Shown: positions 15,103-41,000 of the stretch, in pieces
Layout of the letters: each line of letters begins with the position of its first letter
How positions within the stretch are numbered: the stretch's first letter is position 1
Assembly: GCA_038087875.1 (NCBI GenBank)
Contig: CM075989.1
Location: forward strand, 4,898,001 to 4,962,000
Direction of reading: 5' to 3'
Length of the DNA: 64,000 bases
DNA from: Malacoraja senta
Taxonomy: Eukaryota
Program-made: the position numbers and the translations under genes
Notes under the pieces: generated by a model
What the model was told of the DNA's origin: nothing
The model's input: the letters and a program-made list of their open reading frames with translations, nothing else
Databases searched by the model: none

Positions 15103-15194
15103 GCAATTTACAGTACAGATGTAACGATTGCAAGATTACAACTAAACATGTGTACAATGCCTTTAATGCCAAGGCAGTAAGTTGTTATGAGCAG

Positions 15195-18063: not shown

Positions 18064-18069
18064 TAACTC

Positions 18070-18345: not shown

Positions 18346-19135
18346 TGCTCTGGAGAAGGGTCTCGACCTGAAACGTCACCCATTCCTTCTCTCCAGAGAT
18401 GCTGCCTGTCGCGTTGAGTTACTCCAGCACTTTGTGTCTATCTCCGAGTCCAGGAGTTTGGAGATGAGTGTAGTTGTGGTGTTTTCAAATTCATACTCAT
18501 ACGTTCAGAAGTGATAGGAGCAGAATTAGGTCATTTGGCCCATCAAGTCTACTCCATCATTCAATCATGGCTGATCTAGCTCTCCCTCCTAACCCCATTC
18601 TCTTGCCTTTTTCCTATAACCCCGGACACCCCTATTAATCAGGAATCTGTCAATCTCTGCCTTAAAAATATCCATTGACTTGGTCTCCACAGCCTTCTGT
18701 GGCAATTAATTCCACAGAATCACCACCCTCCGACTAAAGAAATTGCTCCTCATCTCCTTCCTAAAGGAACATCCTTTATTTCTGAGGCTACGACCTCTAG
18801 TCCCAGACCCTCCCACTATTGGAAACATCCGCTCCACATCCACTCTATCCAGGCCTGTATTAAGGTGACAGGTGAATCAGGAGGGATCAATGGATATGTG
18901 ACAGAGAATAGGTTATTGGGAAATGTGGAGGAACGGGATTGATGGGCTGTCTCTCAGAGCCAGCATAGACCTGATGGGCAGAGTGGCCACCTTGTACGTT
19001 TGGAGTGGCTTCCTTCTTGTATGATGTAAGAAAATGTGAGAAATAAAATATAAAATTAATGTGAACATATGCGAAGCCTCGTTCCTGGTTTACATCCAGG
19101 TACTAAGACCAATGTTCAAACATGATTTATATTAT

Positions 19136-19206
19136 GAATGAATGAATGAATGAATACTTTATTGTCATTATAACATGTAAACATGTACAACGAAATTAGA
19201 AATGCC
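19136..19206 (-). mobile_element. Copy-A-specific LINE 3' tail insertion
   Basis: (GAAT)n plus TTTATTGTCA; absent at the matching site in copy B (~37658-37668). Confidence 0.65.
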
Positions 19207-19509
19207 AAATAAAAAATAAATTATACTTAGACAGAAGTCACCATTCTTTTAAGATAAGTTGGTCCAAAAATAATTGTGACTTCTAAGTATGATTTAAAAA
19301 AAATTCATTTCAATAAAATATACTTACGATAAACATGATTTGAACTTTGGTCACAATATCTTATGTGGACGGGGTGAAGCAGGGATCAGATTGTGCTGCC
19401 ATGCGCACAGTCTTATCATTTTCCTTCTTTTTAGCCACAAAAAGGAAACACTCGGAATCGCAAAGTAAATTAATAGCTTGTTTTCATTAATAGACTGTAA
19501 TATCTGAAA

Positions 19510-19825
19510 TAGACACAAAATGCTGGAGTAACTCAGCGGGGACAGGCAGCATCCACGGAGAGAAGCAATGGGTGACGTTACGGGTCAAGACTGATGTCAG
19601 GGGAGTGGGCGGTACAGAGATAAAATGTAGTCGGAGACAGTAAGACTGGTCGGAGATCTGGGAAGGGGGAGGGGATGGAGAGAGAGGGAAAGCAAGAGCT
19701 ACTTGAAGTTAGAGAAGTCAATGTTCATACTGCTGGGTTGTAAGCTGCCAAAGTGAAATATGAGGTGCTGTTCCTCCAATTTGGGCCTCACTCTGACAAT
19801 GGAGGAGGCCCAGGACACAAAAGTC
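19510..19825 (-). mobile_element. PLE 3' end fragment (duplicate at ~38296-38610)
   Basis: GIY-YIG C-terminal remnant plus pLTR. Confidence 0.7.
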
Positions 19826-20554
19826 CCCCTTTGTGACTCTTCCTGCTCATCTCCGTCTGTAATATCGGAATCTGGTCTCCCTTCAAGTCAACGCCAAGAA
19901 CTGTACACCGAAGATAGACACAAAACGCTGGAGTAACTCAGAGGGCCAGGCAGCATCTCTGGAGAGAAGGGTGACTGAAGTCTGGAGAAGGGTCTCGGCC
20001 CGAAACGTCACCCATTCCTTCTATTCAGAGATGCTACCTGTCCCGCTGAGTTACTCCAACGTTTTGTGTAAACTAGCATCTGCAGTTCCTTCCTGCACTA
20101 GTGCCACGATTTTAACGGCAGCAACTGTCCTGCAGCTGCACAGAAAGACTTATCAAACAAAAGCTGACACTGAACCACATTCAAAGTTTATGCATTGTCT
20201 CAAGACGGGAGAGTGGTAAGACGCCCTACAGGAGCCGCCACCTCACCACTGCCAGCATCATCAGGGACCCACACCAACCTGGCCACGCACTCATTGCACT
20301 CCTGCCATCGGGAGGAAGAAGGTACAGGAGTCTGAAAACTGTGACGTCCAGGTTCAGGAGCAGCTTCTTCCCTGCAGCCATCGACTATTGAACATTACAA
20401 ACTCCAACTAAACTCCGAACTATCAACTGCACTCGGGACTTTGGGCTTGTTGTGTCGTTTGCACTATTTTGGGTTTCTTTCAATTTCGTGAACTCCTTTA
20501 TTTGTTTGATTATTGTATTATCTGTTGAGAGCTGTGTTTACCAACCGGAGTGCC

Positions 20555-20847
20555 CGGCACAGTGGCACAGCGGTAGAGTTGCTGCCTCACAGCGCCAGGA
20601 ACCCAGGTTCTATCCTGACTACGGATGCTATCCTATGTAGTTTGCACATTCTCCCTGTGACCATCTGGGTTTTCCCCGGGTGCTCCGGTTTCCTCCCACA
20701 TTCCCAAATCATGCAGGTTTGTAGGTTCATTGGTCGGAAGAAATTGCAAATTGTCCCTAGTGCGTAGTGTGTGCTAGTGTAACGGCGGTCACTGGCGGGC
20801 GCGGACTCAGTTGGCCGAAGGGCCCGTTTCCCCACTGTATCTCTAAA
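20555..20847 (+). mobile_element. tRNA-derived SINE (duplicate at ~39340-39632)
   Basis: GGCACAGTGGCACAGCGG head, core and tail. Confidence 0.8.
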
Positions 20848-20965
20848 CGTTAAACTCTAATCTTTAAACAAAACTGTTATTGCTGCTGCAAGTGAGAATT
20901 GTATTCCTCCATTTCATCTGGCCATCCATGGTGGGGTGATTAAACTTAGGGAAAATACAGAGTGA

Positions 20966-21381
20966 TAGAAACATAGAAACAGAAAATAGGTTCAGGAGGC
21001 CATTCGGCCCTTCGAGCCAGCACCGCCATTCATTGTGATCATGGCTGATCGTCCCCAATCAATAACCCGTGCCTGCCTTCTCCCCAGATCCCTTGGTTGC
21101 ACTAGGCCCTAGAGCTCTATCTAACGCTCTCTTAAATCCATCCAGTGATTTGGCCTCCACTGCCCTCTGTGGCAAGGAATTCCACAAATTCACAACTCTC
21201 TGGGTGAAAATGTTTTTTCTCATCTCAGTCTTAAATGGCCTCCCCTTTATTCTAAGACTGTGGCCCCTGGTTCTGGACTCGCCCAACATTGGGAACAATT
21301 TTCCTGCATCTAGCTTGTCCAGTCCTTTTATAATTTTATATGTTTCTATAAGATCCCCCTCATCCTTCTAAACTCCAGTGA
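20966..21381 (-). mobile_element. CR1 LINE 3' end (duplicate at ~39751-40166)
   Basis: SRTRGHSLRI...FTQRVVNLWNSLP...FKRALD; (TTTCTATG)n tail. Confidence 0.9.
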
Positions 21382-21435
21382 AGCAATAGAATAGAAGCAG
21401 GAGTATATGAGAGACCATAGTTCAATAAAAGATAT

Positions 21436-21822
21436 CTCATATTTCGCTTGGGCAGCTTACAACCCAGCGGTATGATTATTGGTTTATCTAACTTCAATCC
21501 TTGCATTCCCTCTCTGTCCATCGCTCTCCCACCCAAGTCGTACCAGTTTCAAAGTTGTCTTGTTGAGTCTCATTGTTTGTAACTCGTTTTCACCTAGCCC
21601 ACAGCTAACAATGGCCTGTTTCCTTTATCATCGTTACTTTTTTTGCATATCTTTCATTCATTTGTTCTATATCTCTCTACATCATCGTCTATATCTCTCG
21701 TTGTCCCTTTCCCCTGACTCTCAGTCTGACGAAGGGTCTCGACCCGAAACATTGCCTATTACTTTTTTCCAGAGATGCTGTCTGTCCCACTGAGTTACTC
21801 CAGCATTTTGTGTCTATCTTCT
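21436..21822 (+). mobile_element. PLE 3' end, second subfamily (also ~40221-40607 and ~60945-61430)
   Basis: LIFRLGSLQPSGM remnant, long 3'UTR, core CTGACGAAGGGTCTCGACCCGAAAC at 21726. Confidence 0.75.
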
Positions 21823-21894
21823 TTAAATAAAATATATTAATTGGAGAGGTATTATTTTACCTGTCCAGATGACACTGCATGGTAAACATTCACA

Positions 21895-23221
21895 TGCATA
21901 ATCGATAACAACCGCAGGGGATGCAACATCTGTCCCTATAACTCCCCTCCCTCAACTCCGTCCAAGGACCCCGACAGTCTTTTCAGGTGAGGCAGATGTT
22001 CACTTGCACCTCCTCCAACCTCATCGACTGTATCCGCTGTTCCAGGTGTGGACTCCTGTATATCAGCAAGACCAAGCTCAGTCTGCCTAAACCTACCGGA
22101 TCTCCCAGTTGCTAAACACTTTAACTCCCCCTCCCATTCCCACACTGATCTTTCCATCCTGGGCCTCCTCCATTGTTAGAGTGAGGCCCAGCGCAAAGTG
22201 GAGGATTAGCACCTCATATTTCGCGGTACACCCCAGCGGTATGAACATTGACTGCAGTTGTACAGAGCCCTAGTCCTTCTGCAGTTGTACAGAGCCCTAG
22301 TGAGACCACACCTGGAGTATTGTGTGCAGTTTTGGTCCCCTAATTTGAGGAAGGACATTCTTGCTATTGAGGGAGTGCAGCGTAGGTTTACAAGGTTAAT
22401 TCCCGGGATGGCGGGACTGTCATATGCTGAGAGAATGGAGCAGCTGGGCTTGTACACTCTGGAGTTTAGAAGGATGAGAGGGGATCTCATTGAAACATAT
22501 AAGATTGCTAAGGGTTTGGACACGCTAGAGGCAGGAAACATGTTCCCGATGTTGGGGGAGTCCAGAACCAGGGGCCACAGTTTAAGAATAAGGAGTAAGC
22601 CATTTAGAACGGAGATGAGGAAACACTTTTTCTCACAGAGAGTGGTGAGTCTGTGGAATTCTCTGCCTCAGAGGGTGGTGGAGGCAGGTTCTCTGGATGC
22701 TTTCAAGAGAGAGCTAGATAGGGCTCTTAAAAATAGCGGAGTCAGGGGATATGGGGAGAAGGCAGGAACGGGGTACTGATTGGAGATGATCAGCCATGAT
22801 CACATTGAATGGCGATGCTGGCTCGAAGGGCCAAATGGCCTACTCCTGCACCTATTGTCTATTGTCTATTGTCTATTGACTTCTCTAACTTCAAGTAACC
22901 CTTGCTTTCCCTCTATCTCCATCCCTCCCCCTTCCCAGTTCTCCGACCAGTCTTACTGTCTCCGACTACATTTTATCTCGGTCTGCTTTGTTGTTACCTT
23001 CTCCCAGCTGACAATGATCTATTCCACATTTTCCTAGATCTCTATACCCTTTGTCCTGTTTTCACACCTTACACTTCCTTATCTATACTCTTCCTTATAT
23101 CTGTACCTCCCACTCCCCTGACATCAGTCTGAAGAAGGGTCTCGACCTGAGACATCACCCATTCCTTCTCTCCAGAGATGCTGCCTGTCCCGCTGAGTTA
23201 CTCCAGCTTTTTGTGCCTATC
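21895..23221 (+). mobile_element. PLE GIY-YIG region plus pLTR, split by a CR1 insertion
   Basis: Degenerate frame QGPRQSFQVRQMFTCTSSNLIDCIRCSRCGLLYI...VAKHFNSPSHSHTDLSILGL; resumes at 22875 with the pLTR core at 23129. Confidence 0.8.
22254..22874 (+). mobile_element. Young 5'-truncated CR1 LINE (duplicate at ~41039-41659)
   Basis: Uninterrupted ORF2 C-terminus to 22779; (CTATTGT)n tail; ATTGACT at both junctions. Confidence 0.9.
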
Positions 23222-24606
23222 ATTGATAAGAACAGGGTCTGTTTCGTGAGCCAAGCTGTCATGGGTGAAAGCATTGGCTGTGTTATTGTCTGTTTGTGAT
23301 GCCAAGTATTGTGTTGCCAGGCAATGGAATTGTCTCTTCCTTTGGTTGCGATGTCCTAATTAAGACCACTATCGCTGGGTCACATCTCAGTAGGTTGTGG
23401 AATGGTTGGGAGTTGAGAGAAGGGAGGGAGGGAGCAAATTACTTTGGATAAACCAACAAAGAGCCATTCAGCGACCCAGGCAATGTGTTTAGCTGCGATC
23501 GTCGTTAATTTGCAAAGTAAATGAGAGGAACTGCCGTCGATTGCCAGTTTGGAAGAGGATACTCGGAAAAGGATAGAAGGGAAAAAACTAACACGGCTTA
23601 TTTTTATACAACTTTTGCAAACTTGTGATCAAATATTTAAGGTTAGAACAACGTAACGTTTGGCAGTGAACTGTGATTGTCTAGGTATAGCTGCTGTTTG
23701 TACTGTTGATGATGCCCATAGCCGTGCATGCCCACCTGATGGGTGCCCGTCCAAAGCTGGAAGTGAGTGGATGCTGCCAGCCAGTTGGAAGCAAAACTGC
23801 CAGAGGGCAGGAGATCGCTGGTTTCCAACAATGTCTGAGACGAACATAATGTCAAGACCATCACCCATCGACCTGAACATAACCCGTATCTCCCCAAACG
23901 ATGTATCTATTCAAAAGTATTTTAAATGCCTCTAACGTATCTGCTTCAACCACCACCCCCGGCAGCACGTTCCAGGCACCCACCACCCTCTGTGGAAAAA
24001 ATGTCCCGCAAATCTCTTTAAACGTTGCCCTTCTCACCTTTAAGTTATCCCCTCAAGCGTTTGACTTTCCCATTCTGGGGAAAAGGTTCTGACTGTCTAC
24101 CCTATCTGTGCCTCTCATAATTTGATATACCTATCAGGTCTCCTCGCAACCTCCAGCATTCGAGAGAAAACAATCCAAGTGTTCAACCTCTCCCTGCATG
24201 TAGCTAATAGGCCCTGTTCGGGCCATCTTTCCGGTGAACCTCCTCTGCACCATTCCCAAGCCTCCACATCCGGCCTGTAACTGGGCAACCGGAACTGCAC
24301 GCAATTGTGGTTGGGCCAATGCTGTAGCCAGTAGAGATACTGCCTCACAGCTTCAGGTTCGATTGCTTGGTGTCTCGCATGGGATTTATCCAGCAACTCA
24401 AGTTTGGCTCTCCCAAACACGTGCAGATTGATTCACTGGCTGGCCACTGTAGTCTGTCCCTAGTGTGTAGGTGAGTGGTGGAATCTGGGGGAGGTTGATG
24501 GGAATTTGGGACGGAGAAAAGTTCAGCACAGGTACAGACCACAACGTCTGTGCTGAACATCATGCCAAAATTATCCAATCTCATCTGCTTACATACAGTA
24601 TAAATG

Positions 24607-24931
24607 GGGCTGCACTGTGGCGCAGCCTTTGAGCTGTTGCCACACAGCGCCAGAGACCTGGATTCAATCCTGACTACGGGTGCTGTCTGTTACGAGTTTG
24701 TACATTCTCCCTGTGAGTGGGTGCCCACCTGCGTGGCTTTTCTCCGGGTGCTCCGGTTTCCTCCCACACTCCAAAGACGTACAGGTTTAATTGGCTTGGT
24801 ATAATTGTAAATTGTCCCCAGTATGTGTCGGACTAGTGTTAGTGTGCGGGGATTGCTGGCCGGTGTGGACTCGTTGTGCCAAAGGGCCTGTTTCCGCGCT
24901 GTATCTGTAAACTAAACTAAACTAAACTAAA
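24607..24931 (+). mobile_element. tRNA-derived SINE (duplicate at ~43359-43683)
   Basis: Head, core and (TAAAC)n tail. Confidence 0.8.
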
Positions 24932-25139
24932 AGCTGTTAGTTGGAGGAAGTGTGCTGGTGCCGACCCAAATACAAGAATATAATTTGGAACGTTTTCTAT
25001 GTGGGAAATGCGGTGAATGCTAGGAAGGGGATAGCTTATCTTGGAAGGCACGGATTCTCTCACACCTTCTGCCTTTTCACCTCTGGCCTGTCTCTAGCCA
25101 TCTGCCTATCAAGAACCCCCCTCACCTGTATCCACCTAT

Positions 25140-25231
25140 GAAGAAGGGTTTCGGCCCGAAACATTGCCTATTTCCTTCGCTCCATAGATGCTGCTGCACC
25201 CGCTGAGTTTCTCCAGCACTTTTGTGTACCT
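25140..25231 (+). mobile_element. Copy-A-specific PLE mini-element insertion
   Basis: 9-bp TSD TCCACCTAT (25131-25139, 25232-25240); single copy of the site in B at ~43883-43891. Confidence 0.85.
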
Positions 25232-26048
25232 TCCACCTATTACCCCCCAGGCTTTGTCTGCCCTAGTATCTTCCAGCTTTCTAACCCCCCCCCCACCCAC
25301 CCTCCACCCCCAGGCCCCCACCCCGCCCTCACGCCCCCACCCCAAACCCTCCCCACACAAATAGAATGGAGAATGGTCCTTACCCGAAATGTCACCTCTA
25401 TTCATGTTCTCCAGAGATGCTGCCAGACCCGCTGAGTTACTCCAGCACTTTGTGTCTTTTCTTTGTAAACCAGCAACTGTAGTTCCTTGCGTTAACGCAG
25501 CTGATTGAAAATCTCATCCGGAGAACAGTGCCTCCAGCAAAAGTTAATAACGAGCATTGTTGAACGGTTTGAAGTTAAGTAGCTGAAAACAATTCATTAC
25601 AAATAATTGGAATGTGTCAAATGTGTTTTAATGTTCCTTTCTGAGGGAATTAATGCAGGGAATTAACGGATATGGAGATTGGCTCAACAATGGCGTCGTG
25701 TTCAGCACGGACATTGTGGGCCGAAGGGCCTATTGCTGTGCTGTACTGTTCTATGGTCTACGTGAGTGAGTTTTGGTGATGAGGCTAGGCGTCCATTGCG
25801 GGTTGATCAGCATTATGTCAGTCTTGCCTTTGTTTATTCACATTGCTGGCTATACTTGACCATCAAACTGCAAAGATCTGGAAGAGCTTCCCCTGTCCCC
25901 CCCCCCCCTCCCCCTCCCCTTCCACCTGCTCTTTGCAAATGGAAGCCTCAATGTTCTACGCTGGCTTAATTAATTAAAAGTTGGTTTGAGTGATGCCTTG
26001 TGACAACCTAATCCACTTCAACTGACCCTACAAAGCTTTCTTCCACAG

Positions 26049-26144
26049 ACTGCGGCTTCCCAGTTGTACGGACCTCCCGGGAGAAGCCAGTGCCCTCCGC
26101 TACTGGACCCAGCGAGCTTCTAAACCGCTCTCTGCCATCGCCTG
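26049..26144 (+). CDS. Candidate 96-nt symmetric internal exon (duplicate 44709-44804)
   Basis: Branch-like CTGAC, CTTTCTTCCACAG acceptor, CTG|GTGAGT donor; phase-1 frame xCGFPVVRTSREKPVPSATGPSELLNRSLPSP and phase-2 frame both open; identical in both copies. Confidence 0.55.
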
Positions 26145-27067
26145 GTGAGTCACAATCATTCCCAACCAGCGAACGGTCACGGTTGGTCTTGCAGCTTGAT
26201 CGCACGGAATCCGGACACATTTTCACAGCGAGGTACGGCAGCCTGTCGACGCACCCCGGGGGAATAGACGCCCCTACACAGGAGTGAACTATTGCAGATC
26301 ACATTAATGACACGTAAATGGTGGAGGATTTAAACTTAAAATCTTTACGGTTTTTAAAAATCGTCAATATAAAGAAAGAAATGTCACAAAAGTTGCGACC
26401 CTCAGCCAAAAAAGCCTAAATGTTAAAGTAAAACTATTAATCTGTCAAATACTATCTAATTCATTTAAAATACTTACGAGAACACAACATTAGATTCTCA
26501 TGCCCGCACCGCTGCTGTTTATTTCCAATGTTTAACCATTTAAGGCTCAATTCTCCACTGTGAACTTCTTTATTTTCTCCACCCTTTTCGCTGCCCATTT
26601 CATCAATGGTTCGAACAGCTGTTCTCACTGTTATTCTATCTTGGCTTTAACAGTAAGTAGCCGTGTATATCTGCACCTTCCGCGAGGATCTCCCATGCAT
26701 TTACGAGGAAAAGCTTTCTATATTCTTTCAGAATCACCGGTTTCACATTGATGCAAATTTCAACCCAAGTCTTTGCTTAAAACTGTAATTGGACTGGGGC
26801 TAATTGATCTGTGGGACAGTGATGATTAGTTCTATGGGATTAATAATATTACTATAAATCTGCCGCCATATACTATTTATGTGTATGCGTATACTATTTA
26901 TCCTATTCCACTGACTGGTTTGCACGCAAAAAAGCTTTTCAGCGTACCTCGGACATGTGACAATAAACTCAACTGAACTGATGCAAACCAAACTATTATC
27001 AAAGGGAGTGGGCTGCATTGTACGAATAATAAAGTAAGATTGCTATCTTTCATTCACTGCTATCTAT

Positions 27068-27312
27068 CACTTCCCTCTGGGAGGCGACTCCGGATTGTCA
27101 AAGCTGCCACAGCCTCCCTTTGATCTGGTATTTTGTTGGTTCACATGCTTGATCAATGGTGTTTTATCATTAATGTTTTGTTATTATTAATGTTTAGTGT
27201 TTTCTGAGTCATTCGTAACTGTCACTGTATGTCATGTTGTTACTTGTGGGCGGAGCACCAAGGCAAATTCCTTGTATGTGAATACTTGGCCAATAAACTT
27301 ACTTACTTACTT
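27068..27312 (+). mobile_element. Rex1-type LINE 3' end with (CTTA)n tail (longer allele at ~45968-46273)
   Basis: LPSGRRLRIVKAATARHKNCFYPRVVALLN in copy B. Confidence 0.7.
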
Positions 27313-29514
27313 CATGATATAATGTCTGCGAGAATAGTCCTCAGATTAGTCCTGGATCTAATGAAGATTATAATCCCATTCCATCATTCGATCTGTACAT
27401 ATTGTTGAACATGAACGACTGCCGATTAAACATAGTTTTTAACACGATCCAGGTCAGGATTTGACAGATTACTATTGACTCCATCTACACTTCACGCTGC
27501 CTCGAAAAAGCAGCCAACATAATCAAAGACTTGTCCCACGGCTGATATTTCGTCCTCTCCCTTCTCCGGTCTATAAGCTGATGTCTATCTGCACCTCCAA
27601 GTGGCAGAATTATTAATGCCTGAACTCATTGCCCTATGATCAAGGGAACTGCTCCTTTTTGAGAAAGACCCCTCAACGCCTCAGGTATCCAAATGTACTA
27701 TACAACTAACGAAGGGCATTTGAAGCATCGTCACAAAGTAGGAAACAAAGACCCACACACAGCGATGTGATAATGATCTTTTTTTGTTCAATGTTGATTG
27801 AGGATCAAATGTTGGCCACAATAGTAATGTGGGTTCTTTGACATTCGATTAAGAATTTAGACTGGTCTTCTTTTCAATGTCTGATCAGAAAGATGGCATC
27901 CCCTTGTTTGTATCACTGCCTGTGACGTGTGGGCTTGGATTGAATTGAATTGAATTGAATTCTTTTTGTCAGATGTGACAAGTCACAATGGAATTCTTCG
28001 CTTGCATACCCAAGGTATGCCAATCGTCACCACATCAAGGGTACTTGGTTTGTTGATTGCATTCTGACTGAGACAGTTGTAGGTGCAGTGGTCTTTCACC
28101 TGAGCTGGACCTTCAGAGCGGCATTGAGGTGGACACGTGACCCATTAAATTACTGCGTGTTCAGGAGGACGTGAGCAAACCCATGGCAAAGATAAGAGAA
28201 CATTGGTTTAAGGTGAGGGGGAAAAGATTTGATAGAAACATGAGCAGTGACTTTTCACACAAAGGGTGGTGGGTGTACGGAACGAGCTGCTGGAGGAGGT
28301 AGTTGAGGCATGTGTTATTGCAACATCTAAGAAACATTTAGACAGGTACAGGGATAGGGCAGGTTTATAAGGATATGGGCTAAACACAGGCAGGTAGGAC
28401 TAGTGGAGAAGGGACATCTTGGTTGGTCTGAAGAAGGGTCTCGACCCGAAACGTCACCTATACCTTCGCTCCATAGATGCTGCTGCACCCGCTGAGTTTC
28501 TCCAGCATTTTTGTCTCCCTTCGATTTTTCCAGCATCTGCAGTTCTTTCTTAAACTCTTGGTTGGCATAGGCAAGTTGGGCCAAAGGGCCTGTTTCCATG
28601 CTGTGACTCTATGACTATGAAACATAGAACATTGAAACATAGAAAATAGGTGGAGCATTAGGCCATTCGGCCCTTTGAGCCAGCACCACCATTCAATATG
28701 ATCATGGCTGATCATCCAAAATCAGTATCCCGTTCCTGCTATCTCCCATATCCCTTGATTCCGTTAGCCCTAAGAACTATATCTAACTTATTAAATTAAA
28801 ATTAAATTTATATTAAAATTAAGAGCTAAATCTAACTCTCTCTTGAAAACAGCATCTCTGGAGAACATGGATAGGTGACGTATCAGGTCGAGACCCTTCT
28901 TCAGATCTTCTTCAGAATTCAAAAAATTATTTCGAAATGGCAAAAACAATGATTTAAACTGGGAAATAATCTTGGGACGGCACAGAGTTGCTGCCTGACA
29001 GCTCCAGAGACCCAGGTTTGATCCTGACTATGAGTGCTGTCTGTACGGAGTTTGTACATTCTCCCTGTGATCGCGTGGGTTTTCTCCGGGTGCTCGGGTT
29101 TCCTCCCACATCCCAAAGACATGCAGGTTTGTAAGTTAATTCACCTCTGTATATTGCTCCTAATGTGCAGCACATTGTTTCAACCTACAGTACCAGTTTC
29201 CAGAGACTTGGATAATTGATCTGGAGATATAAATATAGTAGTTATGGAACTTTATGCCAAGAAATTAAATTAATCTGGAACTAAAATAAAAGCTAGTATC
29301 TATGAGTAGAATCCCTCAGTCACTGTCTGTAGTATGGCTGGGTTAACTTTGGTATTTGGAAAGACATTCTTGCCATAGAGGGAGTACAGAGAAGGTTCAC
29401 CAGATTGATTCCTGGGATGGCAGGACTTTCATATGAGGAAAGACTAGATAGACTCGGCTTGTACACGTTGGAATTCAGAAGATTGAGGGGGGATCTTATA
29501 GAAACTTACAAAAT

Positions 29515-29714
29515 NNNNNNNNNNNNNNNNNNNNNNNNNNNNNNNNNNNNNNNNNNNNNNNNNNNNNNNNNNNNNNNNNNNNNNNNNNNNNNNNNNNNNN
29601 NNNNNNNNNNNNNNNNNNNNNNNNNNNNNNNNNNNNNNNNNNNNNNNNNNNNNNNNNNNNNNNNNNNNNNNNNNNNNNNNNNNNNNNNNNNNNNNNNNNN
29701 NNNNNNNNNNNNNN
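29515..29714. other. Assembly gap (200 N)
   Basis: Run of exactly 200 N. Confidence 1.
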
Positions 29715-32700
29715 CGGGTCAGACAGTATCTCTGGAGATAAGGAATAGGTGAGAAAAGGTGACGGAATGAGCCTCCATGAGTCTGAAGAAGGGTCTCGAG
29801 CCGAAACATCAGCTCCTCCTTTTCTCCAGAGATGCTGCCTGACTCGCTGAGTTAATCCAGCTTTTATGTCCAGCAGAGGATGTCCTGGTCGGTTTGCTCC
29901 TGGGCCAGGCCTAGTTGGCCATTAGTGGGTCACGATGCCAGGTGGAAGAGGGCTTCGCCCGAGCCGACTGCCTGCCCCTCCTCCGGGGTTACGTCCATAC
30001 CCGGAATCCCTCGAAAAGGAACACACAGTGTCATAGAGTGATACAGTGTGGAAACAGGCCCTTCAGCCCAACTTGCCCATACCGGCCCACATGTCCCAGC
30101 TACACTAGTCCCACCTGCCCGCGCTTGATCCATATCCCTCCAAACTTGCCATATCCATGTACATGTCTAACTGTTTCTTAAACGTTGGAATAGTCCCAGC
30201 CTCAACTACCTCCTTCGTCAGCTCATTCCATACACCCACCACCTTATGTGTGAAAATGTTACCCCTCAGATTCCTATTAAATCTTTTCTCCTTCACCTTG
30301 AACCTCTGTCCTCTGGTTCTCGATTCACCTACTCTAGGCGAGATATTTTGTGCATCTGCCCGATCTATTCCTCTCATGATTTTGTACATCTCTGTAAGAA
30401 CATCCCTCATCCTCCTGCGCTCCAAGGAATAGAGACCCAGGCTACTCAACCTCTCCCTATAGCTGAAACCCTCTAGTCCTGGCAACATGCGCGTAAATCT
30501 TCTCTGAGCCCTTTCCAGCTTGACAATATATTTTCTGTAACATGGTGCCCAGAACTGAACACAATACTCTAAATGCGGTCTCACCAACGTCTTACACAAA
30601 TGCAACATGACCTCCCAACTTCTATACTCATGTGTGTCCACGGGCACCTTGAAGGGTTTTCGGGAACGCTGGGAACCGCGGGGAATGGAATACATCTTCC
30701 ACCGGGATTGTAGCATACTTATTTAATATTTAGTTTTTAGAATATTTGGTCATTTTTGTATGATGATGGTGGGCGTGTTGGTATGGTTTGTTTTGTAAAT
30801 ATTATTATTGTTAATAATTAAATAAATTAATTTTTGTAATGAAAAACAATTGACGTAGAAGAAGATACAGTTGGAAACACAGACTGTGTAGGAAGGAAGT
30901 GCAGATGCTGGTTTAAAATGAAGATAGACACAAAATGCTGGAGAAACTCAGCGGGTCAGGCAGCAACTCTGGAGAGAAGGAATGGGTGGGCTCTGCAGGC
31001 TACAGCAGGAAGGGATCTTCTGCCCATTAGTGTTCGTGAATAAGAACATGTTATTTGATGAACATAACTGTGCAGCGTGGATACAGGCCCCACGGCCCAC
31101 CGAGTCCGCGTTCTCCATCCATCGCCCACTCACGCTAGTTTGACGTTATTCCACGTTCTCATCCGCCCCCTGCACGCCAGGGGCAATTTGCAGAGGCCAA
31201 TTAACCTACAAACCTGCACGACTTTGGGAAGTGGAAGAAAACTGGAGCACCCACGTGGTCACAGAGAGAACGTGCAAACTCCACATAGACAGCACCCAAG
31301 GTCAGGATCGAACCTGGATCTCTTCATGATCCGGATAATACCCAGTTAAGCCAATATCCATTGACTTGGCCTCCACAGCCGTTGGTGGCAATGAATTTCC
31401 TAGATTCACCGCCCTCTGACTTGATGAATAGATGCCAAGTGTTGTGGCTTGAAGTGAATATGGTGCTTTGATTTTTTTTAAAGAGTAGAGTTGGTGAAAA
31501 ACATGTTATAGGAGTCTGGCAAGAGTTTAATAGTAGAGCGATTAGACATGTGTGTTGAATGACACCAAACTGAGGATATCAATGCTTTGACTTTTCTGCC
31601 GCCTGATGTATCTGTACAGAAAAATCAGGCCACAAATCACAAAGGTTTAAAAATTACTCTTTTTAAACCGTAATTTATTTGTTGAACTGATGATCTGATA
31701 ATCTGAGCAATTCAGAATTCAGGAAGCGACATTGGCAGAACTGATGTTTAAGAAGGAACTGCGGATGCTGGAAAATCGAAGGTACACAAAAATGCTGGAG
31801 AAACTCAGCGGGTGAGGCAGCATCTATGGAGCGAAGGAAATAGGCGACGTTTCGGGTCGAGACTCTTCTTCAGACTGATGTGCGGGGGGGGGGGCGGGAA
31901 GAAGAAAGGAAGAGGTGGAGATAGTGGGTTGTGGGAGAGCTGGGAAGGGGTGGGGAAAGAGGGAGAAAGCAGGGACTACCTGAATTTGGAGACGTCAATG
32001 TTCATACCACTGGGGTGTAAACTGCCCAAGCGAAATATGAGGTGCTGCTCCTCCAATTTACGGTGGGCCTCACTCTGGCCATGGAGGAGGCCCAGGACAG
32101 AAAAGTCGTATTTGGAATGGGAATTCCGCCTCTTCCTTTCTTCTTCCCGCCCCCACCCTCACATCAGTCTGAAGAAAGGTCTCGACCCGAAACGTCGCCT
32201 ATTTCCTTCGCTCCATTGATGCTGCCCCACCCGCTGAGTTTCTCCAGCATTTTTGTCTACCTTGGCAAACTGATGGTTTGGTTGCAAAAACACTCTACAT
32301 TTCCTTCAATGTATCCCAAGAAAATAAAGTTGTGTGTAGTGTTCAGGATGATTAGATCCATGGACTGGAGGGCGGACATAATGCTATCATTCTTGCCTTT
32401 CCCTGGTGCCTGCGTTGGAGAGGGCTTTACAATGCAGTCTCCAGTCTGAACAACTCGAGCAAGCACCAGTTTCCACGCGGGCATCCGGTGCTACTCAGGA
32501 GCACAGGGGGAGGGGGCGGGGGGGGGGGGGGTTTGGTCTCTCAATGGAGGCAGTGTGAGGAACAAGCCTTTCTCTCAGCCATCGTTCCTGCTGCCAGCTG
32601 CTTCTCATTAGCAGTGATCAGCTGGCTTCTCCTCAGTTGTATATCCCACTGAGGAATGCGCTTGAACCAACTCAGAAGTCTCTCAGCGGGAAGAACAGTG

Positions 32701-35700
32701 GAAGAAAAACAGGAGGCATTTGAAGCGTTTCAGGGAAGCTGTAAATGCCTATGCTGTAAGTCCCGCCTGTACCGCAGAGTCCCAGGTCACATACTGTACA
32801 AACACATCTCCATGCAAAATTATGTCAAATCCAAGTTTTAGATACTAACAAGCCTCTTATGGATGTTAAAGATTGAGGCAATATGCCCACTAGTCCTTTC
32901 CATCCACGCAAGCCTTCAAAATACAAGCAGGACAATGAAGAAACTGAGTGAGAAGAAGGGTCCCAACCTAATCCGTCACCTATTCCTTTTCTCCAGAGAT
33001 GCAGCCTGACCCGCTGAATTACTCCAGCACTTTGTGTCTTTTTTTCAGGATAAACCACTGCTGAGTGTTCCTTACCACCGTCAACTCCCGATCTGCAATT
33101 TCCACCCTAACCACTCTACCTCCCTCCGCCCCTGTATGTCACTCCTGAAAAACCTGCCTCTTCAATTCCATTTCTGAGGATAAGCTTCAATATGTGACTT
33201 ATGTCGCTCGGTTAATTTGTCAATGATAGTTTGACTGTCTTGGGACATTTTACTGCTTCAATTGTGCTACAAAAATGCAATGTAGTATTATTGTTACATA
33301 TTTGAATTAAGTTGAATTGAATTGAACAGCACGGAAACAGGCCCTTCGGCCCACCGAGTCCGCACCAACCATTAATCAGCTGTTCACACTAGTGTTATTC
33401 CACGTTCGCATCCACTTCCTGCACACCAGTGGCAATTTACAGAGGGCCAATTAACCTACAAACCTGCATGTCTTTGGGATGTGGGAGGAAAGCGGAGCAC
33501 CCGGAGGAAACTCACGCAGCCACAGGGAGAACGTGCAAACTCTGCACAGACAGCATCCAAGGTGAGGATTGAACCCAGGTCTTTGGGGCTGTGAGGTAAC
33601 AGCTCTACCAGATGCACCCATGGTGCAATTTACAGTACAGATGTAACGATTGCAAGATTACAACTGTAAACATGTGTACAATGCCTTTAATGCCAAGGCA
33701 GTAAGTTGTTATGAGCGGATAGATTCAAGATTCAAGAGAGTTTATTGTCATGTGTCCCTGATAGGACAATGTAATTCGTGGTTTGCTTCAGCACAACAGA
33801 ACATAGTAGGCATGAATACAGAACAGATCAGTGTGTCCATATACCATTATATAAATATATACACACATGAATAAATAAACTGACAAAGTGCAAATAACAG
33901 ATAATGGGCTATTAATGTTCAGAGTTTTGTCCGAGCCAGGTTTAACAACCTGATGGCTGTGGGGAAGTAGCTATTCCTGAACCTGGTCATTGCAGTCTTT
34001 AGGCTCTTGTACCTTCTACCTGAAGGTAGCAGGGAGATGAGTGTGTGGCCAGGATGGTGTGGGTCCTTGATGATGCTGGCAGCCTTTTTGAGGCAGCGAC
34101 TGCGATAGATCCCCTCGATGGAAGGGAGGTCAGAGCCGATGATGGACAAAAATGCTGGAGATACTCAGCGGGTGAGGCAGCATCTATGGAAGTCTGAAGA
34201 AGGGTCTCGACCGGAAACATCACCTATTTCCTTCGCTCCATAGATGCTGCCTCACCCACTGAGTTTCTCCAGCATTTTTGTCTACCTTAGATTTTTCCAG
34301 CATCTACAGTTCTCTCTTAAACGTTGCTATGAGCAGGTTCTGACTAAATTTGCTTGGGTTAAAACAAGTGTGAATAGAGCCTTTAGCAGGGATGTTGATG
34401 GGGTCAAGAAAAGGTCACGGGTCACGTCGCGGCCCTGTTTCCACCAATCTTTCCACCACCACGCACAAGAAGCAACAGGACAGACATCATTGTTCCCCAG
34501 AGATTGTTCACCAGACTTCTAATCGTGTGTGTGGACTCGATAAGAAGAAGGGATGTTGATGTTTATTCAGTGTTCGACCACATTAAACCCACGTAATGGC
34601 AAGGACAATTAAGATTTGAATGAGATCGACTCAAAGTGCTGGAGTAACTCAGGCAGCATCTCTGGAGAACATGGATAGGTGACATTTCGGGTCGGGATCC
34701 TTCTTCAGACTAATTGAATAATTTAGTTGCAACTGAATTTTTTTAAGTTTCTGCTATTATGGATACTTCATAGAAACACTGAGGTTTTTATTCTTATAGT
34801 CTTATTTGTGCGGGGGAGGATTGCCAGTTTTAGTGAGCTTGCTTCAGAATTACAGAGAGATAATCTCCTAATCCTTTCTCTGTTTTACGTAACCTTGTAG
34901 AGTGCACTCTATCCACGCCTACATTATTCACCATTTTACGCATTTACTCTGTGGCTGAAATTCCGTACTGCTGAAAGTAAAACACACGGGGGGGCCAAAA
35001 ATGTTTGCTTGTCTTATTTAGATCTCCCGTCTGTGACAATTAGTGTCGCTGATTTGATTCAGCCATGGACCCGCGGACTATATCAAGGCCTCACAATAAT
35101 GCGTTTGCCTTAACCAGAGGGCAACCTGCCTGCCTTCATGGAACCTTATGCACAGTGCAGCGCCATTGCCCTAACAGTTTAGTTTAGTTTAGAGATACAG
35201 CGCGGAAACAGGCCCTTCGGCCCAACGAGGCCGTGCCAACCAGCAATCCCCGCACATTAACACTATCCTACACACACTAGGGACAATTTACACTTAAACC
35301 AAGCCAATTAACCTACAAACCTGTACGTCTTTGGAGTGTGGGAGGAAACCGAAGATCTCGGAGAAAACCCGCGCGGTCATGGGGAGAACGTACAAACTCC
35401 ATACAGACAGCACCCGTAGTCGGGATCGAACCCGGGTTTCCGGTGCTGCAAGCGCTGTAAGGCAGCAACTCTACCGCTGCACCACCGTGCCGCCCTGCTC
35501 CAATTAGTTCATAGAACATAGATCAGGGAACGGTATAGCACAGGCCCTTCAGCCCACTATGTCTGTGTGGAACATGAGGCCGTTAAACTAATTTCCTTGT
35601 TTTCTCCCCAGAGCCCTTTAAATTTACTGTTTCTTTTGAAAACTTATTTTTAAATCAGTTTTTGCAACATTTCAGGAGATGCAAACCAGATTATAACAAT

Positions 35701-37717
35701 TCTCTATTCAAAATAAGTTCTAACTATTTCCCATTTGGTTATTTTGCCAATTATGAAAGCCCATTTGATTACCTCTGAGTGAAAACTTTGCTTCATATCT
35801 AAGTGCTTATGTATAGTGATACTTGTACTGAAGTATATACAGAAATGAATCTCACTGTACCTCATTACATGACAAATAAAGTTCAATTGAACCATTGAAC
35901 TACTGAATTCATTCTTGTTTTATAACAGCCATTCTCCATTCCGTGAATGTTAAAGATCTTGGCACACTATTTGACAGTGGGTCCACAGGAAAACTCAAAG
36001 CTGCCCACACAATTGCCAGGATTTTGCATCCAGTCTAACTATCAAATACAGGGCTTTCCAACATAGTGAAAGGCAGACACAAAATGCTGGAGTATAACTC
36101 AGCGGGACAGGCAGCATCTCTGGAGAGAAGGAATGGGTGACGTTTCAGGTCGAGACCCATCTTCAGACTGATCCACTCTTTCTATTGACTATCCCATCCT
36201 TTAAGAAACAGTTAGACATGTACGTGGATAGTATGAAGAAGGGTCTTGACCCGAAACGTCACCCATTGCTTCGCTCCATAGATGCTGCCTGGCTCGCTGA
36301 GTTTCTCCAGCATTTCTCTCGACCTGTGGGAGAGATTGTTGTCCTGACACCATGTTACTAGGGTTTCTAAAGGGCCTGTCCCACTTTCACGACCTAATTC
36401 ACGACCTCTGCCGAGTTTGCCCTTGACTCATACTCGCAGCATGGTCGTCACGAGGTCCTAGCAGGCCGTGATGCTGGTCGTTGGTACTCGTGGCATTAAG
36501 TAGGTCGGGGCGTTTTTCTAGCCTGATGAAAAATGTCCTTGAGTAAAAAAGGTCATGAATTAGATTGTGAAAGTGGGACAGGCCCTTAACTCCTTCCTGT
36601 ACTTTGTCTTGCCATTGTCTGTGATCCCACCCACCGCAGTGGTGTCATCTGCAAACTTGCAAACGGAGTTAAAGCACAATTTGTCCACAGAGTTGTGGGT
36701 GTATAGGGAGGGTGGTAAGGGGCTTGCAGGGCATGGACGTTGAGAATTATCATGGAGGATCCTGACTTTTACTGAGGACTTCACGGAGGAATTATCATGC
36801 CCAACCTCACTGATCGTGGTCCATGGGTCAGGAATCCGAGGACCAAGTTTCTAGAGCGAGGTGCTGACTGCTCTGGAGAAGGGTCTCGACCTGAAACGTC
36901 ACCCATTCCTTCTCTCCAGAGATGCTGCCTGTTGTGTTGAGTTACTCCAGCACTTTTTGTCTATCTCCGAGTCCAGGAGTTTGGAGATGAGTGTAGTTGT
37001 GGTGTTTTCAAATTCATACTCATACGTTCAGAAGTGATAGGAGCAGAATTAGGCCATTTGGCCCATCAAGTCTACTCCATCATTCAATCATGGCTGATCT
37101 AGCTCTCCCTCCTAACCCCATTCTCTTGCCTTTTTCCTATAACCCCGGACACCCGTATTAATCAGGAATCTGTCAATCTCTGCCTTAAAAATATCCATTG
37201 ACTTGGTCTCCACAGCCTTCTGTGGCAATTAATTCCACAGAATCACCACCCTCCGACTAAAGAAATTGCTCCTCATCTCCTTCCTAAAGGAACATCCTTT
37301 ATTTCTGAGGCTATGACCTCTAGTCCCAGACCCTCCCACTATTGGAAACATCCGCTCCACATCCACTCTATCCAGGCCTGTATTAAGGTGACAGGTGAAT
37401 CAGGAGGGATCAATGGATATGTGACAGAGAATAGGTTATTGGGAAATGTGGAGGAACGGGATTGATGGGCTGTCTCTCGGAGCCAGCATAGACCTGATGG
37501 GCAGAGTGGCCACCTTGTATGTTTGGAGTGGCTTCCTTCTTGTATGATGTAAGAAAATGTGAGAAATAAAATATAAAATTAATGTGAACATATGCGAAGC
37601 CTCGTTCCTGGTTTACACCCAGGTACTAAGACCAATGTTCAAACATGATTTATATTATATTGAAATGAAATTTAAAAAAAATTATACTTAGACAGAAGTC
37701 ACCATTCTTTTAAGATA

Positions 37718-38024
37718 GGTACACAAAAATGCTGGAGAAACTCAGCGGGTGCAGCAGCATCTATGGAGCGAAGGAAATAGGTAACGTTTCGGGCCGAAAC
37801 CCTTCTAAGGAAATAGGTAACGTTTCGGGCCGAAACCCTTCTAAGGAAATAGGTAACGTTTCGGGCCGAAACCCTTCTAAGGAAAGAGGTAACGTTTCGG
37901 GCCGAAACCCTTCTAAGGAAATAGGTAACGTTTCGGGCCGAAACCCTTCTAAGGAAATAGGTAACGTTTCGGGCCGAAACCCTTCTAAGGAAATAGGTAA
38001 CGTTTCGGGCCGAAACCCTTCTTG
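37718..38024 (-). mobile_element. Copy-B-specific PLE mini-element insertion carrying a 7 x 36-bp concatemer
   Basis: 14-bp TSD ATTCTTTTAAGATA (37704-37717, 38025-38038); empty site in A at ~19243-19256. Confidence 0.9.
37771..38022. repeat. Tandem array, 7 x AAGGAAATAGGTAACGTTTCGGGCCGAAACCCTTCT
   Basis: Direct reading; one T>G variant in unit 4; no spacers. Confidence 0.95.
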
Positions 38025-41000
38025 ATTCTTTTAAGATAAGTTGGTCCAAAATAATTGTGACTTCTGACTAAGTATGATTTTTTTTAAATTTCATTTCAAT
38101 AAAATATAATTACGATAAACATGATTTGAACTTTGGTCATAATATATTTTGTGGACGGGGTGAAGCAGGGATCAGATTGTGCTGCCATGCACACAGTCTT
38201 ATCATTTTCCTTCTTTTTAGCCACAAAAAGGAAACACTCGGAATCGCAAAGTAAATTAATAGCTTGTTTTCATTAATAGACTGTAATATCTGAAATAGAC
38301 ACAAAATGCTGGAGTAACTCAGCGGGACAGGCAGCATCCACGGAGAGAAGCAATGGGTGACGTTACGGGTCAAGACTAATGTCAGGGGAGTGGGCGGTAC
38401 AGAGATAAAATGTAGTCGGAGACAGTAAGACTGGTCGGAGATCTGGGAAGGGGGAGGGGATGGAGAGAGAGGGAAAGCAAGGGCTACTTGAAGTTAGAGA
38501 AGTCAATGTTCATACTGCTGGGTTGTAAGCTGCCAAAGTGAAATATGAGGTGCTGTTCCTCCAATTTGGGCCTCACTCTGACAATGGAGGAGGCCCAGGA
38601 CACAAAAGTCCCCCTTTGTGACTCTTCCTGCTCATCTCCGTCTGTAATATCGGAATCTGGTCTCCCTTCAAGTCAACGCCAAGAACTGTACACCGAAGAT
38701 AGACACAAAACGCTGGAGTAACTCAGAGGGCCAGGCAGCATCTCTGGAGAGAAGGGTGACTGAAGTCTGGAGAAGGGTCTCGGCCCGAAACGTCACCCAT
38801 TCCTTCTATTCAGAGATGCTACCTGTCCCGCTGAGTTACTCCAACGTTTTGTGTAAACTAGCATCTGCAGTTCCTTCCTGCACTAGTGCCACGATTTTAA
38901 CGGCAGCAACTGTCCTGCAGCTGCACAGAAAGACTTATCAAACAAAAGCTGACACTGAACCACATTCAAAGTTTATGCATTGTCTCAAGACGGGAGAGTG
39001 GTAAGACGCCCTACAGGAGCCGCCACCTCACCACTGCCAGCATCATCAGGGACCCACACCAACCTGGCCACGCACTCATTGCACTCCTGCCATCGGGAGG
39101 AAGAAGGTACAGGAGTCTGAAAACTGTGACGTCCAGGTTCAGGAGCAGCTTCTTCCCTGCAGCCATCGACTATTGAACATTACAAACTCCAACTAAACTC
39201 CGAACTATCAACTGCACTCGGGACTTTGGGCTTGTTGTGTCGTTTGCACTATTTTGGGTTTCTTTCAATTTCGTGAACTCCTTTATTTGTTTGATTATTG
39301 TATTATCTGTTGAGAGCTGTGTTTACCAACCGGAGTGCCCGGCACAGTGGCACAGCGGTAGAGTTGCTGCCTCACAGCGCCAGGAACCCAGGTTCCATCC
39401 TGACTACGGATGCTATCCTATGTAGTTTGCACATTCTCCCTGTGACCATCTGGGTTTTCCCCGGGTGCTCCGGTTTCCTCCCACATTCCCAAATCATGCA
39501 GGTTTGTAGGTTCATTGGTCGGAAGAAATTGCAAATTGTTCCTAGTGCGTAGTGTGTGCTAGTGTAACGGCGGTCACTGGCGGGCGCGGACTCAGTTGGC
39601 CGAAGGGCCCGTTTCCCCACTGTATCTCTAAACGTTAAACTCTAATCTTTAAACAAAACTGTTATTGCTGCTGCAAGTGAGAATTGTATTCCTCCATTTC
39701 ATCTGGCCATCCATGGTGGGGTGATTAAACTTAGGGAAAATACAGAGTGATAGAAACATAGAAACAGAAAATAGGTTCAGGAGGCCATTCGGCCCTTCGA
39801 GCCAGCACCGCCATTCATTGTGATCATGGCTGATCGTCCCCAATCAATAACCCGTGCCTGCCTTCTCCCCAGATCCCTTGGTTGCACTAGGCCCTAGAGC
39901 TCTATCTAACGCTCTCTTAAATCCATCCAGTGATTTGGCCTCCACTGCCCTCTGTGGCAAGGAATTCCACAAATTCACAACTCTCTGGGTGAAAATGTTT
40001 TTTCTCATCTCAGTCTTAAATGGCCTCCCCTTTATTCTAAGACTGTGGCCCCTGGTTCTGGACTCGCCCAACATTGGGAACAATTTTCCTGCATCTAGCT
40101 TGTCCAGTCCTTTTATAATTTTATATGTTTCTATAAGATCCCCCTCATCCTTCTAAACTCCAGTGAAGCAATAGAATAGAAGCAGGAGTATATGAGAGAC
40201 CATAGTTCAATAAAAGATATCTCATATTTCGCTTGGGCAGCTTACAACCCAGCGGTATGATTATTGGTTTATCTAACTTCAATCCTTGCATTCCCTCTCT
40301 GTCCATCGCTCTCCCACCCAAGTCGTACCAGTTTCAAAGTTGTCTTGTTGAGTCTCATTGTTTGTAACTCGTTTTCACCTAGCCCACAGCTAACAATGGC
40401 CTGTTTCCTTTATCATCGTTACTTTTTTTGCATATCTTTCATTCATTTGTTCTATATCTCTCTACATCATCGTCTATATCTCTCGTTGTCCCTTTCCCCT
40501 GACTCTCAGTCTGACGAAGGGTCTCGACCCGAAACATTGCCTATTCCTTTTTTCCAGAGATGCTGTCTGTCCCACTGAGTTACTCCAGCATTTTGTGTCT
40601 ATCTTCTTTAAATAAAATATATTAATTGGAGAGGTATTATTTTACCTGTCCAGATGACACTGCATGGTAAACATTCACATGCATAATCGATAACAACCGC
40701 AGGGGATGCAACATCTGTCCCTATAACTCCCCTCCCTCAACTCCATCCAAGGACCCCGACAGTCTTTTCAGGTGAGGCAGATGTTCACTTGCACCTCCTC
40801 CAACCTCATCGACTGTATCCGCTGTTCCAGGTGTGGACTCCTGTATATCAGCAAGACCAAGCTCAGTCTGCCTAAACCTACCGGATCTCCCAGTTGCTAA
40901 ACACTTTAACTCCCCCTCCCATTCCCACACTGATCTTTCCATCCTGGGCCTCCTCCATTGTTAGAGTGAGGCCCAGCGCAAAGTGGAGGATTAGCACCTC

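What the first reader, a model, noticed from the sequence alone, without database searches (positions are those of the whole stretch)
37704..38038. Fresh PLE insertion with a 7 x 36-nt concatemer of a hairpin-bounded template segment: possible reiterative (telomerase-like) reverse transcription
Seen: the insertion is present only in copy B, inside a perfect 14-bp TSD. Read in cDNA direction (+), it copies the element end, reaches the hammerhead-like core (...CCCTTCT) and restarts 36 nt back at AAGGAAATAGG six more times, with only one substitution among the 7 units. On the RNA (minus) strand the unit AGAAGGGTTTCGGCCCGAAACGTTACCTATTTCCTT(C) is closed by a GAAGGG/TCCTTC stem that brings its two ends together. 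There is no direct microhomology at the restart (GGAGCG versus CCTTCT). The unit has stop-free frames on both strands, (KEIGNVSGRNPS)n and (LRRVSARNVTYF)n. Known: PLE reverse transcriptases are the sister group of telomerase RT, and bacterial DRT2 RTs make concatemers by template jumping. Inference: the array arose during insertion by structure-guided template jumping or from a small circular RNA, not by later DNA slippage.
Basis: partly seen in the sequence, partly recalled or inferred. Interest (0 to 1): 0.82.

Follow-up and report, generated by a model that had tools for sequence, protein, structure and literature searches.

The report
Retrotransposon stutter builds 36-base repeat array
This is a real, very young insertion of a Penelope-like retrotransposon end carrying seven copies of a 36-base piece, one of dozens of such arrays in this genome, likely made when the element's telomerase-related enzyme repeatedly re-copied a short stretch of its own RNA during insertion.

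Summary
The array is real: 7 x 36 nt at 37771-38022 with one substitution, inside a perfect 14-bp target duplication. Copies A and B flank a 200-N gap, so they are probably two haplotypes. The insert matches the leader of an intact Penelope-like element (1,212-aa ORF, Neptune/Nematis-type linker). The subfamily has 8,182 exact copies and 42 distinct duplications of this segment, but only this one has the 36-nt register. Such arrays sit at 5' junctions (1 of 42 in a long copy, against 28 of 59 single copies), mostly start near the inferred capped RNA end, and sometimes have different linkers within one locus. A second class ends at the internal reverse-transcription start site. Both patterns point to repeated re-priming during insertion, more likely on the RNA than on the cDNA. 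The proposed hairpin-guided register fits 1 of 37 arrays, a circular RNA is unsupported, and the open frames are chance. Later DNA-level expansion occurs elsewhere and cannot be excluded for these seven units. No reads or biochemistry confirm the mechanism. The scan's one related note concerns whole-element tandems in another genome.

The parts
37704..37717 (+). Target-site duplication, copy at the element's 3' end (first-strand priming side)
   Evidence: identical to 38025-38038 and to the empty site 19243-19256
37718..37770 (-). Element body, positions +96 to +44 of the leader (+1 = inferred RNA start); begins at the first of two recurring 3' ends (inferred RT start site 1); no tail
   Evidence: +8..+96 has 0 mismatches to the pLTRs in 4 of 6 intact copies, 1 in a fifth; the sixth has a 1-nt insertion
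37771..38022 (-). Seven tandem copies of leader positions +8 to +43; each holds the 3' part of the hammerhead-like motif but lacks the start of its first conserved box
   Evidence: motif reading is recalled knowledge, Rfam gave no hammerhead match
38023..38024 (-). Two bases at the outer 5' junction: one matches element +7, one matches neither element nor target
38025..38038 (+). Target-site duplication, copy at the element's 5' end
19243..19256 (+). Empty site in the other copy (probably the other allele)
29515..29714 (.). 200-N scaffold gap exactly between copies A and B
37624..37702 (+). Left arm of an AT-rich inverted repeat whose loop holds the target site
   Evidence: 82% to the right arm; fold
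38057..38144 (-). Right arm of that inverted repeat

Best explanation
The array lies at the 5' junction of a short Penelope-like insertion and was likely written in one event by the element's own reverse transcriptase, which would have run off the 5' end of the RNA, re-primed about 36 nt back on the same RNA and repeated this six times before the cDNA was joined to the target. Shown: the structure, the identity to an intact autonomous element, and genome-wide patterns (junction location, left edges near +1, per-junction linkers, a second class ending at the internal start site). Inferred: that +1 is a capped transcription start, that the template was RNA, that the enzyme was the PLE RT, and that all seven units date from the insertion. 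The register is set per event by where the RNA ends and where the enzyme lands, not by a conserved template box.
For: Junction origin: 1 of 42 distinct arrays lies in a long copy, against 28 of 59 single copies (Fisher p = 7e-7 for the curated set, 0.002 for the 17 non-inverted arrays of this subfamily). An upstream control segment gave 1 duplication in roughly 2,400 copies, itself at a 5' junction. Left edge at -5..+9 in 36 of 37 curated direct arrays, matching the 5' ends of short single copies (-2..+19). Extra G before +1 at 16 of 18 inner junctions against 8 of 19 outer junctions of single copies (p = 0.005), in three subfamilies. Outer unit shorter than inner in 19, equal in 12, longer in 6 (p = 0.015), as expected if the last cycle is trimmed at joining. 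Different linkers within one insertion: L081, L105 (three kinds in four junctions, p about 6e-4), L085, L216, L220, L240. Second class: right edge at +89..+102 in 18 of 24 arrays when free from +73, including 12 of 14 whose innermost unit runs through the tail; outer unit shorter in 18 of 20. Unit counts 2:25, 3:6, 4:2, 5:3, 7:1 fit a continuation chance near 0.39. R2 RT makes cDNA concatemers by template jumps (PMC11789487, PMC11371274, passages).
Against: All evidence is genomic pattern; no RNA, raw reads or assay. The six junctions here are identical, which DNA-level expansion also predicts. Adjacent units share a derived non-CpG variant in 2 of 16 longer arrays (L084, L094). Regional families with one register, unrelated flanks and 2-11 units show DNA-level spread. 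In inverted insertions a short sense extension after the central palindrome followed by a jump to +1..+8 (9 loci) points to DNA-templated top-strand jumps. This locus restarts at +8, not at +1, and has no extra G. +1 as a start site is unverified. The curated set was hand-read, covers 79 of 235 hits, and that search excluded periods under 37.
Confidence: 0.5

Rival explanations
1. Second-strand stutter: the upstream target end primes on the 3' end of the finished cDNA, copies about 36 nt, falls off and restarts at the same cDNA end several times. The enzyme could be the PLE RT or a host end-joining polymerase.
For: Gives the same sequence and also fixes the left edge. Inverted loci show snap-back at the +14..+28 palindrome with the inverted-arm base at the centre in all 9 short-extension cases, then a jump to +1..+8 (over all extension lengths about 11 against 3). 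R2 second-strand priming is imprecise and uses template jumps (PMC13000458, sections 20 and 25). PAc extends both strands (PMC11167929).
Against: Does not explain why the second class stops at the internal RNA start site when the cDNA continues through the tail (12 of 14), nor arrays with a fixed right edge and varying left edges (L008; window 9826-9993). Many junctions are blunt or carry linkers with no microhomology, which fits a host microhomology polymerase poorly (recalled property).
Confidence: 0.2
2. One jump at insertion made a two-unit seed; ordinary minisatellite expansion (slippage, unequal exchange or conversion) then raised it to seven.
For: Six identical junctions and one substitution. 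The unit holds a palindrome. Shared variants in L084 and L094. Array families near contig ends vary from 2 to 11 units at one register. Local amplification of pLTR-derived repeats by unequal crossover is proposed in bioRxiv 10.64898/2026.07.22.740005 (discussion).
Against: The insertion is probably still heterozygous and has a perfect duplication, so time was short. Seven units is within the tail of the unit-count distribution (about 0.3 expected among 37). 13 of 16 longer arrays show only private or no variants over the 22 positions compared.
Confidence: 0.2
3. One reading: a hairpin that brings the two ends of the 36-nt segment together guides a fixed-register jump, or a 36-nt circular RNA was copied by rolling-circle synthesis.
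For: This locus is the one array of 37 whose junction lies within 2 nt of the stem base, and it is the longest. The stem forms in the truncated RNA (P about 0.75). Right edges cluster at +37..+48 near the stem's 3' arm, and 6 of 20 second-class arrays restart at +45, just outside it, so the stem may act as a roadblock.
Against: Registers run from 26 to 55 nt with no pairing rule between edges (rho 0.25, p 0.13). The stem is absent when the tail is present. The junction is not at the presumed hammerhead cut, and the unit cannot form the whole motif. Reported animal retrozyme units are 51-972 bp with complete hammerheads (bioRxiv 10.64898/2026.07.22.740005).
Confidence: 0.06
4. Assembly artefact: the insertion is real but the number of units is mis-assembled.
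For: The site lies in an overlap beside a scaffold gap and inside a long palindrome. No read spanning it was seen.
Against: A private substitution in unit 4, a perfect duplication, and many comparable arrays at unrelated loci.
Confidence: 0.04

Closest known systems
PAc, Poseidon PLE of Anolis carolinensis (Frangieh et al. 2024, PMC11167929; main text read)
   Same: RT plus C-terminal GIY-YIG, pLTR with hammerhead, two internal RT start sites 30-40 nt apart giving a tail, AT-rich targets, both strands extended.
   Different: This element has a CX4CxxC linker (Neptune/Nematis feature), its long ORF starts at +167 beyond the tail, and it leaves 14-bp duplications. The text I read reports no repeated copying of a short segment; its supplements were not seen.
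PLE partial tandems and 5' inversions (Craig et al. 2021, PMC8557442; passages)
   Same: Truncated copies stacked at the 5' end, inverted copies, optional tail; origin called undefined.
   Different: Those are element-scale. Here 26-55-nt segments repeat up to seven times inside one target duplication.
R2 RT template jumping, snap-back and extra-template junctions (PMC11371274, PMC11789487, PMC11331408 passages; PMC13000458 sections 20, 25)
   Same: End-to-end jumps without homology, non-templated linkers, concatemers, snap-back at 5' junctions.
   Different: R2 jumps are described between separate template molecules, mostly in vitro or with engineered RNA. Here one short segment recurs with a constant landing site within a locus, in germline insertions.
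Telomerase, DRT10 and DRT2 repeat addition (PMC12632851, PMC12039810; passages)
   Same: [quoted passage not shown]
   Different: No alignment region, no fixed register, rare (about 0.2-0.5% of copies), no sign of function, no meaningful reading frame.
Animal non-LTR retrozymes (bioRxiv 10.64898/2026.07.22.740005; text through discussion)
   Same: Tandem repeats derived from pLTRs; multimers enriched at chromosome ends.
   Different: Units there are 51-972 bp with complete hammerheads. This unit is 36 nt, incomplete, and confined to one junction.

Membership tests
Penelope-like element (EN+) | Single ORF with RT and C-terminal GIY-YIG endonuclease | tested here: met
   1,212-1,238-aa ORFs in 6 of 6 fetched copies; RVT_1 and GIY-YIG match below Pfam cut-offs; catalytic YIDD and cysteine pair inside the GIY-YIG core visible
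Penelope-like element (EN+) | pLTRs, tandem and inverted insertions, optional 30-40-nt tail | tested here: met
   3,997-nt tandem in L360, pLTR at both ends in L361-L363 and L365; two 3' ends and inversions
Penelope-like element (EN+) | Hammerhead motif in the pLTR | tested here: inconclusive
   Minimal motif recognisable by recalled pattern; no Rfam hammerhead match at E <= 1 in 30000-45000; cleavage untested
Neptune/Nematis versus Penelope/Poseidon clade | CX2-5CxxC motif in the RT-EN linker | tested here: met
   CX4CxxC upstream of the endonuclease; feature as defined in PMC8557442. No tree was built, so the clade is not fixed
Telomerase/DRT10-type repeat addition | Alignment region duplicated at the template ends | tested here: not met
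   Overlap 0 at all six junctions here; blunt or linker junctions common elsewhere
Telomerase/DRT10-type repeat addition | Fixed template boundaries giving one register | tested here: not met
   Periods 26-55 nt among 37 arrays. The second class has a preferred right edge (+89..+102) but variable left edges
Telomerase/DRT10-type repeat addition | Several repeats per binding event, RNA-templated | not testable with these tools
   Only indirect genomic signs
Non-LTR retrozyme | Complete hammerhead in every unit | tested here: not met
   Unit starts at +8 and lacks the first bases of the conserved box
Non-LTR retrozyme | Circular RNA intermediate | not testable with these tools
   No RNA holder listed
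DRT2-type concatemer gene | Concatemer creates a functional ORF | tested here: not met
   Open frames expected by chance (88% of shuffles); no promoter or conserved start seen

The most novel reading that the evidence does not exclude
A Penelope-like reverse transcriptase has latent repeat-addition activity: while holding its RNA it resets to the internal start site or to a site 30-50 nt from the cap and writes several tandem copies in one binding event. This would be an in vivo trace of the cycle that telomerase and DRT10 specialised, and a recurring source of new minisatellites.
Probability: 0.35. Interest if true: 0.85.

Novelty: new variant of a known kind. Interest (0 to 1): 0.62.

Why it matters
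PLE reverse transcriptases are the closest eukaryotic relatives of telomerase, and how PLEs build their tandem and inverted insertions is described as undefined (PMC8557442). These arrays give a countable genomic signature of repeated re-priming, with defined RNA coordinates and an intact cognate enzyme in the same genome, so the question can go straight into the existing in vitro PLE assay. They also show minisatellite seeds being born at insertion. The single locus is ordinary in function: a non-coding, probably neutral by-product.

Tried and rejected
Rfam scan of 30000-45000: four weak matches below gathering scores, no hammerhead. Sequencing runs: no RNA holder listed, which says nothing on expression. 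Contigs of four runs laid on 37300-37842: one run covers the left flank 37351-37658, no listed piece spans the stretch, so copy number and allele state stay untested. PDB sequence search with the full ORF: nothing significant. Four regions fetched to find a full-length copy held none; a protein search then found them. Coding role: rejected. Same register elsewhere: rejected. Segmental duplication as the frame: doubted because of the gap. An early 8-of-8 count for the snap-back centre was too clean; the recount gave about 11 against 3 overall. forces right edges to +90 or more, so one search was run without that bound. Eleven regions from the list (L265-L275) were fetched but not analysed. Ten paper searches found no description of such arrays; the library lacks most subscription papers, and supplements of PMC11167929 and of the bioRxiv preprint were not seen and may bear on novelty.
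Full report
Observation. The array is 7.0 x 36 nt at 37771-38022 with one substitution. It follows a 53-nt element body (37718-37770) and sits between two identical 14-mers at 37704-37717 and 38025-38038; the 14-mer occurs once at 19243-19256 in the matching copy. The two copies (11267-29514 and 29715-48476, 98-99% alike) are split by a 200-N gap, and the left flank has no other strong match in the assembly. I infer two haplotypes and a heterozygous insertion. Contigs of public runs could not test this.

The element. The insert is the minus-strand leader of a Penelope-like element. I number from +1, the A where many short copies begin. The subfamily core occurs 8,182 times exactly. Long copies run upstream into an RT plus GIY-YIG frame. 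Six regions with long frames were fetched from 150 scored matches; all six hold 1,212-1,238-aa ORFs starting at +167 where the upstream pLTR is present, and insert positions +8..+96 match their pLTRs with 0 mismatches in four, 1 in a fifth, and a 1-nt insertion in the sixth. Pfam matches are below cut-off. A CX4CxxC linker points to Neptune/Nematis rather than Poseidon; no tree was built. Copies end at two places, about +96 and +134, like the two internal RT start sites and tail of PAc (PMC11167929, parts 1-2 of 4 read). Of 59 sampled copies, 28 are long and 31 end at -2..+19, 13 of those beside an inverted copy (four copies with small indels were moved to 'long' by eye). The simplest reading is that transcripts start near +1 and RT starting at +96 or +134 runs off their 5' end (inference).

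Is the register special? No. The exact junction occurs at five places here and one old locus. Trimers of the core at 25-55-nt spacing give 1,207 overlapping matches. In this subfamily, 51 direct duplications were found; 50 were fetched, seven were duplicates and one a false hit, leaving 42: 16 direct, 25 beside an inverted copy, one in a long copy. I added 20 direct arrays from the sister subfamily (79 of 235 hits examined, periods 37-57 only) and L008. In these 37 hand-curated arrays, 31 have a target duplication, periods run 26-55 nt, left edges lie at -5..+9 in 36, and right edges peak at +37-39 and +43-47.

Made at insertion. Long copies carry the same sequence and hairpins, yet hold 1 of 42 arrays against 28 of 59 single copies (p = 7e-7 on the curated set, 0.002 on this subfamily's 17 non-inverted arrays). 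A control segment 100 nt upstream is duplicated once in roughly 2,400 copies (16 of 54 sampled copies carry it), and that case lies at a 5' junction. Successive junctions differ within L081, L085, L105, L216, L220 and L240; in L105 three of five changes fall in eight linker bases (p about 6e-4). Slippage of one junction cannot give that. A first duplication is rare (0.2% of copies direct, 0.5% with inverted ones) but a further unit follows with chance near 0.39.

Which strand? A G absent from the element precedes +1 at 16 of 18 inner junctions without C, against 8 of 19 outer junctions of single copies (p = 0.005). That RTs copy a cap as an extra base is recalled, not checked here. The outer unit is shorter than the inner in 19, equal in 12, longer in 6. 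A second class is more telling. Arrays of the 3' part have right edges at +89..+102 in 18 of 24 cases when the search leaves the edge free from +73 (30 of 134 hits fetched; two of the 24 are arms of one locus), including 12 of 14 whose innermost unit continues through the tail. In a related set the outer unit is shorter in 18 of 20, equal in one, unclear in one (30 of 44 hits fetched). Resetting to an RNA start site in the middle of an existing cDNA is what RNA-templated re-initiation predicts. Against this, nine inverted insertions show snap-back at the +14..+28 palindrome, a short sense extension and a jump to +1..+8, so DNA-templated top-strand jumps happen too, as in R2 (PMC13000458 sections 20, 25; PMC11371274 passages). 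This locus restarts at +8 without an extra G, so its template end would be trimmed.

Later DNA-level change is real. Families with one register and unrelated flanks cluster near the ends of large contigs, with 2-11 units. Adjacent units share a derived non-CpG variant in 2 of 16 longer arrays, a third shares a CpG change, and 13 show only private or no variants. The six identical junctions here cannot separate six cycles from one jump plus expansion.

The hairpin and the circle. The unit alone does not form the proposed stem. The stem forms in the truncated RNA but not with the tail present, and only this locus of 37 has a junction within 2 nt of its base. It may still act as a roadblock: 6 of 20 second-class arrays restart at +45. 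Nothing supports a circle; retrozyme units are 51-972 bp with whole hammerheads (bioRxiv 10.64898/2026.07.22.740005, parts 1-3 of 5). Open frames are chance.

Comparison and novelty. It works like template jumping by retroelement RTs, which make concatemers in vitro (PMC11789487, passages). It fails two defining tests of telomerase/DRT10 repeat addition, an alignment region and a fixed register (PMC12632851 and PMC12039810, passages). PLE partial tandems are known and their origin is called undefined (PMC8557442, passages). Other passages seen: PMC11331408, PMC6155905. Ten searches found no account of short reiterated segments at PLE junctions, within a library that lacks most subscription papers. 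The scan holds one related note on whole-element tandems in another genome and none for this genome.

Verdict. Real; a new variant of known retroelement behaviour; best explained by repeated re-priming on the RNA during insertion (0.5), with second-strand stutter (0.2) and seed-plus-expansion (0.2) open. Interest 0.62, carried by the genome-wide pattern and the ready in vitro test rather than by this one locus.

Noticed in passing
window 29515-29714; 11267-29514 versus 29715-48476: An 18-kb overlap on both sides of a 200-N gap, probably two uncollapsed haplotypes; differences between them would be alleles, not paralogues.
   Followed up: partly
window 9826-9993: Inverted PLE-end insertion whose centre holds two short restarts with a fixed right edge (about +44/45) and varying left edges.
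   Followed up: partly
L276-L335 (for example L276, L281, L298, L318): Second class of arrays that repeat the 3' part of the leader and end at the first internal start site; the most telomerase-like pattern seen.
   Followed up: yes
G000:C2:192.8-195.3 Mb (L159-L184); also C1:281-283 Mb, C3:2-5 Mb, C4:0.5-2.7 and 84-85 Mb, C9:1.3-2.6 Mb, C17:2.0-3.3 Mb: Array cassettes with one register recur at many loci with unrelated flanks within a few Mb, mostly near contig ends and often inside other PLE copies; local gene conversion or homing is a possible cause.
   Followed up: partly
window 37624-37702 and 38057-38144: The target lies in the loop of a long AT-rich palindrome (-60.5 kcal/mol as DNA without the insert), possibly an old hairpin element.
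   Followed up: no
window about 19135-19200: Copy A has its own short insertion with a GAAT-type repeat that copy B lacks, about 70 nt from the empty site.
   Followed up: no
G000:C13:4.21 Mb (L105) and this locus at 4.94 Mb: The two longest direct arrays of the subfamily (5 and 7 units) lie 0.7 Mb apart on one contig; could be chance or a regional effect.
   Followed up: no
table 5c: Contigs from runs of two coded organisms (X1, X3) hold a back-jump that runs to +1, adds one base and restarts near +47, so similar junctions exist beyond this assembly.
   Followed up: no
L360 (G000:C2340): Head-to-tail 3,997-nt tandem of the autonomous element with two complete 1,238-aa ORFs in the fetched stretch; the family looks recently active.
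   Followed up: partly
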